From assembly GCA_964618765.1 (NCBI GenBank), contig CAZUDZ010000002.1, forward strand, positions 3,166-64,128: a stretch of 60,963 bases of DNA, given 5' to 3'. The notes under the pieces are model-generated. The model was given only the letters and a program-made list of their open reading frames with translations, was not told the origin of the DNA and searched no databases. The position numbers were made by a program, and so were the translations under genes. Shown in pieces: positions 34,138 through 36,094 of this stretch. The number at the start of each line of letters is the position of its first letter. The stretch's first letter is position 1. Origin of the DNA: an uncultured Candidatus Saccharibacteria bacterium. GTDB lineage: Bacteria > Patescibacteriota > Dojkabacteria > SC72.

Positions 34138-34248
34138 CTACTCTATACAACAATCAATCGATTCTCTAACAAAATCCCCCATCTTCTCCCACATACTCTT
34201 TTCCTTTCCCCCTTCCTTCTTTTTTTTCTTCTTCTTTTTCTCTGACAT
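34138..34248 (-). CDS. 36-aa poly-Lys micropeptide with a C-terminal Cys-Cys, not in the ORF track
   Basis: MSEKKKKKKKKEGGKEKSMWEKMGDFVRESIDCCIE*. It starts 19 nt after the upstream stop on the same strand, and the Lys codons mix AAA and AAG. Confidence 0.55.
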   Translation of the reverse strand: MSEKKKKKKKKEGGKEKSMWEKMGDFVRESIDCCIE

Positions 34249-34267
34249 AATCTTCTAATACAACAAC

Positions 34268-34729
34268 TTACTTCTTACTCTCCTTTTTAATACTCTCCGG
34301 TTTAATCAAGCCCATATTCAAACCCCAAAACAGAGAATACAACCCATATGCTTTCTCAAACATATCCTCCGCCAACTCCCTATCCCCTCTTCCTAAATGC
34401 TTTGTACCATACTCCATCAACCTGTAACTAGCTCCAAGAAGATGCTTAGATATACACCATACCTCCCCTTCGTACTCTTTAATTATTCTCTTTAACAAAT
34501 CTTTCCTCATACTCCGAATCTGATCTAAAATATCGTAGTATTCTGAATTCTTCGTCTTAGCACCACTAAAAAAAAGATGCTCCTCTATGGAGATAAGATT
34601 CATAATGGCTATGGACAAATCCTGATCAGCAGAAAGATCTAACCTGTTATCCTTCTTCAATGCATCGTACTTGTCTACCAATTCTTTTACTTCCTCCATA
34701 TCTATTTCTTCTTTTTTCTTCTTAACCAT
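34268..34729 (-). CDS. Helical hypothetical protein with EEH and WCISKH motifs
   Basis: DLSIAIMNLISIEEHLFFS, EVWCISKHLLGASYRL; third gene of an apparent operon. Confidence 0.8.
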   Translation of the reverse strand: MVKKKKEEIDMEEVKELVDKYDALKKDNRLDLSADQDLSIAIMNLISIEEHLFFSGAKTKNSEYYDILDQIRSMRKDLLKRIIKEYEGEVWCISKHLLGASYRLMEYGTKHLGRGDRELAEDMFEKAYGLYSLFWGLNMGLIKPESIKKESKK

Positions 34730-34767
34730 ATATTTATTTATTACATTTTAATTACTAATTATATACC

Positions 34768-35769
34768 CTAATACACCAAGAGATAGAACAGTACTGTTAA
34801 AATCAGGAGAGAACCTACCGTAAAAATTACCTTCTGAAAAGGTATGTATACCTTCCCATCATTCTTTTCTTTAAGATACAAATGTAGCCTTGCAAAAAGA
34901 TAGAAAATTATACTTCCGGAGAGAATTCCTAAAACAATCTTATCTACACCCCACAAAGTATTAAGCGGATGCCCCACAAAATCAAGAAGGTAGAGAGTTA
35001 ATCCTAGGAAAGCATATGTTGATACTGGGACAAGTGTCTTCCATACCCAATTCTTTATATCTTTCCTTTTTAAAATATCTAAAACCCACATTATGGAAGA
35101 AACTACTAACCCTCCGATCCAAACCCCCGTTATCACATCATCTATCCCAAAGTACCTAGAGAATCCTAACCCTGCTCCTACTGCAACTGTACATACAGGA
35201 CAAATTGCATAGCTAGGAGTGCTAGAAAGAAGCATTGCTGTTGTGATTAAAAGGATGGAAGTGACTACCTTCCCTTTCTTTTTTTGCAAAAGATAGCCAA
35301 CTAACACAAGAGAAAACAGCAGAGCAACTACCATTACTAGAAAGATCTCTGTATTTCTTTTTCCCTCTTCATCTGCGCCAACCACTATCTCCTCTTTACC
35401 ATTTTCTAAATCCTCCTCCACTTCAAAACCTTCTCCCACCATTTCTGTTAATTGAGCCATAATTGCATTGGGACCTGTAAAGCATTCCTCATCAAAATAA
35501 AGGAGTGGAACCCCCGCACTATTTGGATCAATTTTACACACCTCTATCTTCTCTCGAAAAATCTTTAAATTATCTTCATTCTCATATATTTCTAACTCTT
35601 CAATGCTGATCTTTTCCTTTATACCCTGCTCCTCTATTTGCCCCCTTACAACATGGCAATATGGACAAGTAGTTCCCCAGAAAAGAATTGGGTTTTCTTG
35701 CGCATTCGTAGGTTGTAGAAAAAATGTACTAAGTGCAAATACTGTTCCAAGAAGAAGTTTGAAAAACAT
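34768..35769 (-). CDS. Glutaredoxin-like domain fused to a multi-TM CxxC domain
   Basis: Signal, TCPYCH, cis-Pro motif GVP, an acidic linker, TM helices, AICPVCTVAVGAG, then about four more TM helices. Confidence 0.8.
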   Translation of the reverse strand: MFFKLLLGTVFALSTFFLQPTNAQENPILFWGTTCPYCHVVRGQIEEQGIKEKISIEELEIYENEDNLKIFREKIEVCKIDPNSAGVPLLYFDEECFTGPNAIMAQLTEMVGEGFEVEEDLENGKEEIVVGADEEGKRNTEIFLVMVVALLFSLVLVGYLLQKKKGKVVTSILLITTAMLLSSTPSYAICPVCTVAVGAGLGFSRYFGIDDVITGVWIGGLVVSSIMWVLDILKRKDIKNWVWKTLVPVSTYAFLGLTLYLLDFVGHPLNTLWGVDKIVLGILSGSIIFYLFARLHLYLKEKNDGKVYIPFQKVIFTVGSLLILTVLFYLLVY

Positions 35770-35791
35770 ATTTTAGGGTATTAAAATTATA

Positions 35792-36094
35792 TTATCTAGA
35801 CAGCTCTAGAAAGCTTTGTACCGATTTCTCTTTGCCCTTCTTGACAGAATATATCGACCTGTTCCCTTCCCTCTCTCTTGCCAGAATACCTACCTCAAGT
35901 AAGTTCTTAAGGTGGAAAGAAACTAAGTTATGCTCTAAGTGTAATCTTTTTGAAATCTCCCCTACGGATGTTGCTCCCTCACTTAAAACACACAATATTC
36001 TTAACCTGTTAGGTTCTCCTACCGCTTTTAGGATCTCTACAGAATCCCCTATCTTCTTACAATTTGCTCTACAATTTTTAAAATTACACTGCAT
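35792..36094 (-). CDS. ArsR/SmtB family regulator
   Basis: LKAVGEPNRLRILCVL, VSFHLKNLLEVGIL and REREG...Y, with a Cys-rich N-terminus MQCNFKNCRANC. Confidence 0.9.
   Translation of the reverse strand: MQCNFKNCRANCKKIGDSVEILKAVGEPNRLRILCVLSEGATSVGEISKRLHLEHNLVSFHLKNLLEVGILAREREGNRSIYSVKKGKEKSVQSFLELSR

What the first reader, a model, noticed from the sequence alone, without database searches (positions are those of the whole stretch)
34138..36094. ArsR / glutaredoxin-CxxC membrane protein / WCISKH protein / poly-Lys-CC micropeptide operon
Seen: four same-strand genes with gaps under 40 nt, each carrying Cys motifs. The ArsR has three N-terminal Cys. The second protein has a CPYC glutaredoxin fold plus a second CPVC motif at a multi-TM domain. 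The third is helical with EEH and WCISKH. The fourth is an uncalled 36-aa peptide. Established: ArsR regulators sense metals, metalloids or reactive sulfur through Cys, and CxxC relays move electrons across membranes (DsbD/CcdA/VKOR logic). Inference: a compact thiol-redox or metal-response module that matches no operon I can name.
Basis: partly seen in the sequence, partly recalled or inferred. Interest (0 to 1): 0.7.

Follow-up and report, generated by a model that had tools for sequence, protein, structure and literature searches.

The report
Unnamed membrane thiol relay of CPR bacteria
The four genes are the Dojkabacteria version of an unnamed, very conserved gene set of the ultra-small CPR bacteria, an exported glutaredoxin, a new CxxC membrane protein and a new cytoplasmic protein whose two-cysteine tail is here a separate 36-residue peptide, which most likely passes disulfide bonds or electrons across the membrane.

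Summary
Four minus-strand ORFs lie 22, 38 and 19 nt apart, with the stated Cys motifs. The interpretation (an unnamed thiol-redox module) holds but needs re-drawing.

- **Conserved core.** It is not the four genes. It is a Patescibacteria/CPR-wide set: an exported Grx-like protein (CPHC in 53 of 67), a new ~170-aa membrane protein with an invariant CPxC ("TM170"), and a new ~176-aa cytoplasmic helical protein ("F153": EEH, WCISKH, C-terminal (D/N)CCxE).
- **Gene linkage.** TM170 sits directly upstream of F153 in 124 of 164 cases.
- **Dojkabacteria rearrangements.** Grx and TM170 are fused (the 333-aa ORF). F153 is split, so the 36-aa ORF is its detached CC tail. It is conserved and translationally coupled, and the tail has split off again in another lineage.
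- **ArsR.** It is a clade-specific add-on.
- **Alternative partners.** A sister F153 subfamily pairs with a CcdA/DsbD-like membrane protein and a VKOR-type exported thioredoxin. Rare members are fused to Trx or Grx.
- **Intein.** Two members carry an intein exactly at W|CISKH.
- **No known family.** Neither new family matches Pfam, NCBIfam or the PDB.

Best reading: a trans-membrane thiol-disulfide relay, direction unresolved. An oxidative, quinone-independent DsbB/VKOR replacement is the exciting option.

The parts
36103..36131 (-). Promoter-like site TTGACA-17 nt-TATATT, ending 8 nt before the ArsR start codon
   Evidence: 11 of 12 consensus match. Both hexamers are conserved in the related locus L004. 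No clear ArsR-type inverted repeat was found.
35792..36094 (-). ArsR/SmtB-family repressor, 100 aa. It has an N-terminal Cys cluster (C3, C8, C12; 36059..36088) plus C35, and an HTH at 35882..36013.
   Evidence: NCBIfam NF033788 68.7 bits (cut-off 55) and Pfam HTH_5 41.1 bits (cut-off 22). It lies directly upstream of the module only in the window clade (L001-L004, L006).
34768..35769 (-). Fusion protein, 333 aa: signal peptide (35701..35769), exported Grx-fold domain with CPYC (35656..35667) and a second Cys pair (C78, C96), a membrane-spanning linker helix, then the TM170 domain (34771..35274) that starts with the invariant CPVC (35191..35202)
   Evidence: AlphaFold2 mean pLDDT 87. Foldseek probability 1.0 to glutaredoxins for the N-terminal domain. 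Invariant A188, C190, P191, C193 in 75 homologues. The two halves are separate adjacent genes in other CPR lineages. No Pfam, NCBIfam or PDB match for the membrane domain.
34268..34729 (-). F153 core, 153 aa: a cytoplasmic helical-bundle protein with EEH (34577..34585) and WCISKH (34442..34459). New family.
   Evidence: >=8000 relatives, 473 clusters at 50% identity. Invariant R72, R75, E89, C92, K95, H96, R103, E106. No Pfam, NCBIfam or PDB hit. No hydrophobic segment (maximum 19-residue hydropathy 1.17). AlphaFold2 gives a five-helix bundle at pLDDT 64.
34138..34248 (-). 36-aa peptide: the detached C-terminal arm of F153. It has a Lys-rich linker, an amphipathic helix and a terminal DCCIE, with the vicinal Cys at 34147..34152.
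   Evidence: 69 of 150 family representatives end in CCxx-COOH on the same polypeptide. The F153 HMM hits this ORF. It is conserved in 10 split loci with stop/start overlaps or short gaps. There is an independent split in loci L086, L087, L089, L091 and L093. The junction is identical in four assemblies.

Best explanation
The locus encodes the Dojkabacteria form of a CPR-wide trans-membrane thiol-disulfide relay under a local ArsR-type repressor.

Shown:
- Three functional units are genetically locked together across Patescibacteria. They are an exported Grx-fold oxidoreductase (CxxC plus a second Cys pair), a new four-helix membrane protein whose only conserved Cys are a CPxC at the start of a short hydrophobic helix on the outer side, and a new cytoplasmic helical protein (F153).
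- F153 has one invariant Cys (WCISKH) and a flexible Lys-rich linker that ends in an amphipathic helix and a vicinal Cys pair, (D/N)CCxE-COOH.
- In this organism the first two units are fused, and the F153 arm is a separate, translationally coupled 36-aa peptide.

Inferred:
- The CC arm works as a swinging or diffusible dithiol/disulfide shuttle at the cytoplasmic face of the membrane protein. The membrane CPxC exchanges with the exported Grx CPYC, which acts on exported proteins.
- The F153 core (C92 and the E/H/R/K cluster) is the site that recharges the arm.
- ArsR, through its N-terminal Cys cluster, derepresses the operon on thiol-reactive stress (oxidant, metal or metalloid).

The direction of electron flow is not settled. 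The evidence is split between reducing (CcdA/DsbD-like) and oxidising (DsbB/VKOR-like), with a slight lean towards oxidising.
For: - **Linkage.** TM170 lies immediately upstream and on the same strand in 124 of 164 F153 genes from 160 loci. The Grx gene lies upstream of that, or is fused to it.
- **Cys conservation.** WCxxKH in 161 of 164, EEH in 162 of 164, a fused CC tail in 136 of 164 with the rest split or truncated, AxCxxC in 112 of 120 TM170, and exactly four Cys in 67 of 67 module Grx domains.
- **Alternative partners.** 11 F153 genes with ...CC(D/E/G)E tails have no TM170. They have a CcdA/DsbD-like protein immediately upstream (PF02683 23 bits, PF11139 29 bits, both below cut-off; NPC and FPC motifs). 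A membrane-anchored thioredoxin follows in six of them.
- **Tail follows partner.** The penultimate tail residue is I/L/K/R (plus one S and one V) with TM170 and D/E/G with the CcdA-like partner.
- **Fusions.** P0236 is Trx (CGSC) plus F153. P0271 is F153 core plus a Grx of the module type plus the CC tail.
- **Active-site hint.** Two homologues carry an intein inserted exactly between W and C of WCISKH.
- **Topology.** The window protein has a cleavable-type signal peptide, and the family's K/R-rich loops 2 and 4 place CPxC and Grx outside. F153 has no hydrophobic segment.
- **For the oxidising direction.** CPHC in 53 of 67 exported Grx. The thioredoxin of the CcdA-type variant is closest to the Trx domain of bacterial VKOR (3kp8, E=1.5e-15), then to PDIs. 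Exported-like proteins in these loci favour even Cys counts (45 even vs 23 odd, against 95 vs 110 cytoplasmic; Fisher p=0.005). A six-Cys secreted protein and pilus genes lie nearby.
- **For the reducing direction.** The CcdA-like partner, and the cytoplasmic Trx fusion.
Against: - No biochemical data exist, and everything rests on gene context, motifs and predicted structures.
- TM170 has a single Cys pair that topology places on the outer side. How redox equivalents would reach a cytoplasmic arm is therefore unexplained, unless the CPxC helix is re-entrant.
- The F153 model is only moderately confident (pLDDT 64) and its core has no recognisable cofactor site.
- A few F153 homologues have an N-terminal hydrophobic anchor (P0245, P0248, P0322, P0331). 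That could place the domain outside the cell.
- Much of the context evidence is phylogenetically non-independent.
- The ArsR link exists only in a narrow clade.
- RNA evidence is a single 202-nt contig.
Confidence: 0.6

Rival explanations
1. Thiophilic metal or metalloid hand-over (Mer-like logic). The exported Grx-like protein binds a soft metal(loid) through CPxC/CPHC and passes it to the membrane CPxC. The metal then moves to the vicinal Cys arm and to a Cys/His/Glu site in the F153 core, either for uptake or for detoxification. ArsR is the metal sensor.
For: An ArsR-family metalloregulator with a Cys cluster heads the operon. In other CPR loci the module sits beside ArsR-Thioredoxin_3-ArsP_1 permease-DsbD_2 clusters (L042, L049, L069, L083, L085). 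A CopA-type ATPase lies within 6 kb in 8 of 80 loci. Vicinal Cys pairs and C-terminal CC arms are used for Hg(II) transfer in MerT/MerF/MerA (own knowledge). The F153 core has conserved E, H and C residues.
Against: There is no similarity to MerT/MerC/MerF/MerP, HMA or any metal transporter family. The module is near-universal in CPR, whereas ArsR is adjacent only in a few clades. The exported partners are Grx- and VKOR-type Trx folds typical of protein disulfide chemistry. Fusions are to Trx and Grx, not to metal-binding domains.
Confidence: 0.15
2. The membrane protein and exported Grx form a self-sufficient DsbA/DsbB-like pair. It would be re-oxidised or reduced by a scavenged quinone or a low-molecular-weight thiol. 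F153 with its tail would then not be an electron carrier but a cytoplasmic regulator, assembly factor or redox sensor bound to the conserved cytoplasmic loop (FPFQKV) of the membrane protein.
For: The CPxC lies on the outer side and no second Cys pair or cofactor motif spans the membrane. F153 resembles no redox enzyme. CPR bacteria live on hosts from which lipids and cofactors could be taken (own knowledge).
Against: The Cys of F153 and the CC tail are conserved as strictly as the membrane CPxC. F153 also pairs with a CcdA-like protein, whose family moves disulfide equivalents across membranes. The tail end varies with partner type. Fusions are to Trx and Grx.
Confidence: 0.15
3. The four ORFs are neighbours by chance, and the 36-aa ORF is a non-coding remnant of a decayed gene end.
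For: The micro-ORF is short and Lys-rich, in an A-rich stretch. ArsR adjacency is not conserved beyond close relatives.
Against: The gene order is conserved in more than 120 loci. The peptide sequence is conserved (…FWxKxGDxVxxAxDCCxE) across loci that differ in junction and frame. The only variant seen among the assemblies is synonymous. The tail has split off independently elsewhere.
Confidence: 0.03

Closest known systems
CcdA/DsbD reducing pathway (cytoplasmic thioredoxin -> membrane Cys pair -> exported Trx-fold protein)
   Same: It has the same three-compartment layout: a cytoplasmic thiol protein, a membrane protein with one redox Cys pair and an exported Trx-fold CxxC protein. A sister F153 subfamily is encoded next to a CcdA/DsbD-like protein.
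   Different: The membrane protein here is unrelated (hhalign probability 0.2%). It has its two Cys as CPxC on one short helix rather than on two trans-membrane helices. The cytoplasmic partner is a helical protein with a CC arm, not thioredoxin. The exported partner mostly carries the oxidase-type CPHC motif.
DsbA-DsbB and VKOR-Trx oxidative folding systems
   Same: There is an exported CPHC/CPYC Trx-fold protein plus a ~170-aa four-helix membrane protein with a CxxC at the outer membrane face. The Trx of the CcdA-type variant is the VKOR-fused type (3kp8, E=1.5e-15). Exported proteins show the even-Cys signature of disulfide formation.
   Different: There is no Pfam DsbB or VKOR match. There is one Cys pair rather than two. 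By own knowledge CPR bacteria lack quinone synthesis. A conserved cytoplasmic partner has no counterpart in DsbB or VKOR systems.
C-terminal redox arms: Erv2p (CGC tail), insect thioredoxin reductase (SCCS-COOH), MerA (CC tail). Also the poxvirus E10R-A2.5L-G4L chain, made of a helical oxidase, a small Cys adaptor and a Grx-like protein. All from own knowledge.
   Same: A helical or catalytic core has a flexible C-terminal arm carrying two close Cys that shuttle between a buried site and a partner. Here the arm can even be a separate small protein, as A2.5L is.
   Different: There is no sequence or fold match to Erv/ALR, TrxR or MerA. The F153 core has one Cys, not a CxxC, and no recognisable flavin site.
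ArsR/SmtB metalloregulators
   Same: The first gene passes the family thresholds and has a winged HTH.
   Different: It lacks the canonical alpha3 CxC site (SVG in place of CVC) and the alpha5 site. It has an N-terminal C3/C8/C12 cluster of unknown specificity. The related L004 protein keeps a CQC at alpha3.

Membership tests
ArsR/SmtB transcription factors | Winged helix-turn-helix scoring above the curated family thresholds | tested here: met
   NF033788 68.7 bits vs cut-off 55, and PF01022 41.1 bits vs 22.
ArsR/SmtB transcription factors | A known sensory site: alpha3 CxC, alpha3N, or alpha5 Asp/His/Glu | tested here: inconclusive
   Read from the sequence. Alpha3 reads SEGATSVGEI, so there is no CxC, and there are no alpha5 ligands. 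The N-terminal C3/C8/C12 plus C35 could form an alpha3N- or S3-type site. The ligand is unknown.
Glutaredoxin / thioredoxin fold | Trx-type fold with CxxC at the N-terminus of helix 1, and a cis-Pro loop | tested here: met
   The model has pLDDT >90 over residues 30-110. Foldseek probability is 1.0 with TM-score to target 0.5-0.77 against Grx structures. CPYC and GVP are present. The sequence HMMs are below cut-off (PF00462 19.0 bits vs 22.9).
DsbD/CcdA membrane thiol-disulfide transporters | Six-helix LysE-type fold with one Cys in each of two trans-membrane helices; similarity to PF02683 or PF13386 | tested here: not met
   The membrane domain has no Pfam hit. hhalign against the CcdA-like proteins of the sister loci gives probability 0.2%. 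The two Cys form a CPxC on one helix.
DsbB / VKOR | Similarity to PF02600 or PF07884; two redox Cys pairs; a quinone site | tested here: not met
   No Pfam or NCBIfam hit. No PDB sequence hit. Stand-alone TM170 has exactly two Cys in 80 of 111. The quinone site cannot be tested here.
Mer transport proteins (MerT/MerC/MerF/MerP) | Family HMM match; Cys pairs in trans-membrane helix 1 and in a cytoplasmic loop; an HMA-fold MerP | tested here: not met
   No hits at E<=0.1 in Pfam or NCBIfam.
Ferritin-like di-iron proteins (rubrerythrin) for the 153-aa protein | Four-helix bundle with two ExxH motifs plus two Glu; a significant fold match | tested here: not met
   The best Foldseek hits are rubrerythrin and sulerythrin, but with E 0.5-3 and TM 0.25-0.38. 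The conserved residues are EEH and E-x2-C-x3-H, with no ExxH.
Erv/ALR sulfhydryl oxidases | FAD-binding helical bundle with a CxxC beside the flavin | tested here: not met
   There is one conserved core Cys only. No Erv structure appears among the Foldseek or PDB profile hits.
F153 family (new, defined here) | DLSxDxDL...EEH...R-x2-R...E-x-WCxSKH...R-x2-E-x-G-x-K core, followed by a linker, an amphipathic helix and (D/N)CCxE-COOH, fused or split | tested here: met
   The window protein carries all invariant residues. The window micro-ORF carries the tail.

The most novel reading that the evidence does not exclude
The module is the missing disulfide-forming machinery of quinone-less CPR bacteria. 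The exported CPHC/CPYC Grx (or VKOR-type Trx) acts as the DsbA. TM170 (or a CcdA-like protein running in reverse) carries the electrons inward. F153 is then a new kind of cytoplasmic disulfide generator or electron sink, which recharges its CC arm (here a free 36-aa peptide) at the WCISKH site. This would be a DsbB/VKOR replacement that needs no quinone.
Probability: 0.3. Interest if true: 0.9.

Novelty: new variant of a known kind. Interest (0 to 1): 0.75.

Why it matters
Two protein families are very widespread and highly conserved in the Candidate Phyla Radiation. Neither family has a name, a Pfam model, a solved structure or any literature that I could find.

They are tied by gene order, fusions and partner swaps to exported Trx-fold oxidoreductases. 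How anaerobes without quinones, DsbB or VKOR keep exported oxidoreductases charged is an acknowledged open question (PMC12453122). This module gives a concrete, testable candidate.

It also offers a clean natural example of a catalytic 'swinging arm' that evolution has repeatedly cut off as a free micropeptide. That is useful both for micropeptide annotation and for understanding redox shuttles.

Tried and rejected
- **HMM libraries.** Pfam and NCBIfam scans of all four proteins, of stand-alone homologues and of 45 F153 members one by one gave nothing for F153 or TM170.
- **PDB by sequence.** Profile searches with the F153 and TM170 alignments gave only chance hits.
- **Fold searches.** The F153 model against the PDB and viral libraries gave no hit with E<0.5, so the ferritin-like idea was dropped. 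The Grx-TM model returned only Grx hits.
- **TM170 vs CcdA-like.** hhalign found no relationship.
- **ArsR operator.** No inverted repeat was found with a 6-nt seed. Comparison with L004 shows a conserved AT-rich ATTAATTTAAT palindrome and the promoter hexamers. Two sequences are too few to call an operator.
- **Programmed frameshift or read-through joining F153 to the tail.** Rejected. Every split locus has its own ATG with a stop/start overlap or short gap, and the frames differ between loci.
- **Sequencing error at the junction.** Rejected.
- **Transcript evidence.** Only a 202-nt contig in one metatranscriptome.
- **Literature.** Four searches found no description of these families.
- **Failed call.** A first metagenome scan with too diverse an alignment failed.
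Full report
**1. Observation**

The four ORFs are on the minus strand as described:
- ArsR, 35792..36094, 100 aa
- a 333-aa protein, 34768..35769
- a 153-aa protein, 34268..34729
- a 36-aa ORF, 34138..34248

The gaps are 22, 38 and 19 nt, and every quoted motif translates as stated. A strong sigma-70-like site (TTGACA-17-TATATT, 36131..36103) ends 8 nt before the ArsR start. Hit names place the organism in Candidatus Dojkabacteria, within Patescibacteria/CPR. It occurs in anaerobic digesters, bioreactors and wastewater.

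**2. The individual proteins**

- **ArsR.** It passes the ArsR/SmtB thresholds (NF033788 68.7 bits, HTH_5 41.1 bits).
- **The 333-aa protein.** It scores below threshold for glutaredoxin by sequence. Its AlphaFold2 model (pLDDT 87) has:
  - a signal peptide;
  - a Grx fold (Foldseek probability 1.0 to glutaredoxins);
  - a membrane helix and a second, signal-like helix;
  - a short helix that begins with CPVC;
  - four trans-membrane helices.
- **The 153-aa protein ("F153") and the membrane domain ("TM170").** Neither matches anything in Pfam, NCBIfam or the PDB.
- **The F153 model.** It is a five-helix bundle of moderate confidence (pLDDT 64). It has no significant fold neighbour. The best hits, rubrerythrins, have E>=0.5 and TM about 0.3.

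**3. The 36-aa ORF is the cut-off tail of F153**

F153 is a large family.

- **The fused form.** Outside Dojkabacteria the protein is about 176 aa. It ends in a variable charged linker, an amphipathic helix and (D/N)CC(I/L/K/R)E-COOH.
- **The window peptide.** It reads MSEK8EGGKEKSMWEKMGDFVRESIDCCIE, which is exactly that tail. The HMM built from full-length homologues hits it.
- **Conservation of the split.** In ten Dojkabacteria-type loci the tail is a separate ORF with its own ATG. The junctions differ (gaps of 18-21 or 1 nt, overlaps of 1 or 4 nt, different frames), but the peptide is conserved: …(D/N)FWxK(I/M)GDxV(K/R)xA(V/I)DCCxE.
- **Not an assembly artefact.** The junction is identical in four independent assemblies, and the only variant seen is synonymous.
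- **An independent split.** In another lineage, tail-less F153 genes are followed by small ORFs ending …ECCMEK, …QCCLES, …ECCFEE, …KCCFEE and …ECCYEE.

So the micropeptide is real, and the covalent link between core and arm is dispensable.

**4. The conserved unit**

I examined 80 genome loci and 80 metagenome loci.

- **Gene order.** TM170 lies immediately upstream of F153 on the same strand in 124 of 164 cases.
- **The third gene.** In many loci a gene upstream of TM170 encodes a membrane-anchored Grx-like protein of 115-160 aa. The Dojkabacteria 333-aa protein is therefore a fusion of Grx and TM170.
- **No other conserved neighbour.** Nothing else is conserved beyond lineage-level synteny.
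- **ArsR.** It is directly upstream only in the window's close relatives (L001-L004, L006).

Conservation of the redox-type residues is near total:

| Feature | Kept in |
|---|---|
| EEH in F153 | 162 of 164 |
| WCxxKH in F153 | 161 of 164 |
| AxCxxC in TM170 | 112 of 120 |
| exactly two Cys in stand-alone TM170 | 80 of 111 |
| four Cys in the module Grx domain | 67 of 67 |

**5. Links to thiol-disulfide chemistry beyond motifs**

- **(a) A second kind of partner.** A sister subfamily of F153 has tails ending CC(D/E/G)E and lacks TM170.
  - It is preceded by a 250-270-aa CcdA/DsbD-like membrane protein. This carries NPC and FPC motifs and hits PF02683 and PF11139 below their cut-offs.
  - It is often followed by a membrane-anchored thioredoxin, and a DUF1573 protein lies further upstream.
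  - That thioredoxin is closest to the Trx domain fused to bacterial VKOR (3kp8, E=1.5e-15), then to protein disulfide isomerases.
- **(b) The tail tracks the partner.** The penultimate tail residue is I/L/K/R (plus one S and one V) with TM170 and D/E/G with the CcdA-like partner. This fits an arm that docks on the membrane partner, although the CcdA-type set is one clade.
- **(c) Fusions.** P0236 is thioredoxin (CGSC) plus F153. P0271 is the F153 core, then a Grx of the module's own four-Cys type, then the CC tail.
- **(d) Inteins.** Two homologues (P0290, P0329) carry an intein with a LAGLIDADG domain inserted exactly between W and C of WCISKH. The conserved Cys serves as the +1 nucleophile. 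By general knowledge inteins sit in functionally critical sites.
- **(e) Tandem F153 proteins.** P0232, P0233 and P0235 have a degenerate first copy without EEH or WCISKH. This hints that F153 acts as a dimer.

**6. Topology**

- The window protein has a classical signal peptide. The helix after the Grx domain is followed by QKKKGK.
- Across the TM170 family, loops 2 and 4 are K/R-rich (3.5 and 4.0 per loop), while loops 1 and 3 are acidic.
- Grx and the CPxC helix are therefore on the outer side. The conserved N-x-G-K-x2-FPFQKV loop is cytoplasmic.
- F153 has no hydrophobic segment, so it is cytoplasmic.
- The unexplained step is how the outer CPxC communicates with a cytoplasmic arm. The CPxC helix (CPVCTVAVGAGLG) is short, Gly/Ala-rich and poorly ordered at its start (pLDDT <50 at residues 187-189). 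It could be re-entrant, but I could not inspect the coordinates.

**7. Direction of electron flow**

For a reducing, CcdA/DsbD-like role:
- the CcdA-like alternative partner;
- the fusion to a cytoplasmic thioredoxin.

For an oxidising, DsbB/VKOR-like role:
- the exported Grx carries DsbA's CPHC in 53 of 67 cases, and CPYC in the window;
- the alternative exported partner is the VKOR-type Trx;
- a six-Cys secreted pacifastin/VWC-like protein (36677..36943) and pilus genes lie near the module in several lineages;
- there is an even-Cys bias in exported-like ORFs. The test is crude: it uses heuristic signal detection on ORFs from the loci. After removing module members and collapsing homologues, exported-like ORFs count 45 even vs 23 odd, against 95 vs 110 for cytoplasmic-like ORFs (Fisher p=0.005). 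This is the signature used to infer extracytoplasmic disulfide formation.

By own knowledge CPR bacteria lack quinones. A recent paper states that the oxidant for DsbA-like proteins in quinone-less anaerobes is unknown (PMC12453122). I regard the direction as open, with a slight lean to oxidising.

**8. Metal alternative**

ArsR heads the operon. In a few other CPR loci the module adjoins ArsR-Thioredoxin_3-ArsP_1-DsbD_2 clusters or CopA. A Mer-like soft-metal relay is therefore not excluded. But no component resembles a metal-handling family, and ArsR adjacency is sporadic.

**9. Verdict**

- The system follows the known logic of trans-membrane thiol-disulfide relays. It uses two new protein families and a detachable vicinal-Cys arm.
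- I found no prior description.

Noticed in passing
P0290 and P0329 (homologues of window 34268..34729); the insertion point corresponds to window 34454..34456 / 34457..34459: Two F153 homologues carry an intein (Intein_splicing plus LAGLIDADG) inserted exactly between W and C of WCISKH. The conserved Cys is the +1 residue.
   Followed up: partly
window 36677..36943 (+): An 88-aa membrane-anchored or secreted protein has six Cys in its outer part (Pacifastin_I 34 bits, VWC 27 bits). It lies two genes from the module and is conserved in L001-L004 and L006. It is a possible substrate for extracytoplasmic disulfide formation.
   Followed up: partly
window 36180..36599 (+): A DUF2177 membrane protein (152 bits) is transcribed divergently from ArsR. 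The same arrangement is seen in L001-L004 and L006. It may share the ArsR-controlled intergenic region.
   Followed up: no
window 36140..36165 and L004 upstream of arsR: An AT-rich near-perfect palindrome ATTAATTTAAT, upstream of the -35 box, is conserved between the window and L004. It is a candidate operator, or the divergent promoter.
   Followed up: partly
P0232, P0233, P0235, P0382: These are tandem double-F153 proteins (~345-354 aa). The first copy has lost EEH and WCISKH, while the second keeps them and the CC tail. This suggests a dimeric working unit.
   Followed up: partly
L042, L049, L069, L083, L085 (loci of other CPR bacteria): A cluster of ArsR (with CVC site), Thioredoxin_3, an ArsP_1 permease, a lipoprotein with CxxC and DsbD_2 lies directly beside, or in place of, the Grx/TM170 genes next to F153.
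   Followed up: partly
160 CPR loci (L004-L165) plus the window: Exported-like ORFs favour even numbers of Cys (45 even vs 23 odd clusters), unlike cytoplasmic-like ORFs (95 vs 110). This suggests that CPR bacteria form extracytoplasmic disulfides.
   Followed up: partly
P0245, P0248, P0322, P0331, P0293, P0332, P0334: A minority of F153 homologues have an N-terminal hydrophobic anchor and Cys-richer tails (for example …CGCGQTVNTGASCCYGG). Their location, inside or outside the cell, is unclear.
   Followed up: no
L110 and L114: A third kind of split: an F153 core of 144 aa is followed by a longer second ORF that ends …DCCIE. I did not check whether this is a real fission or an assembly frameshift.
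   Followed up: no
window 32902..34044 (-): The next gene downstream is an RlmM/FtsJ-like 2'-O-methyltransferase (NF008734 81 bits, below cut-off) with its own promoter-like site at 34103..34075. It is probably not part of the operon, and it is not conserved next to the module elsewhere.
   Followed up: no
window 34210: One assembly (run X10) has C>T here. The change is synonymous in the 36-aa ORF (Gly13).
   Followed up: yes
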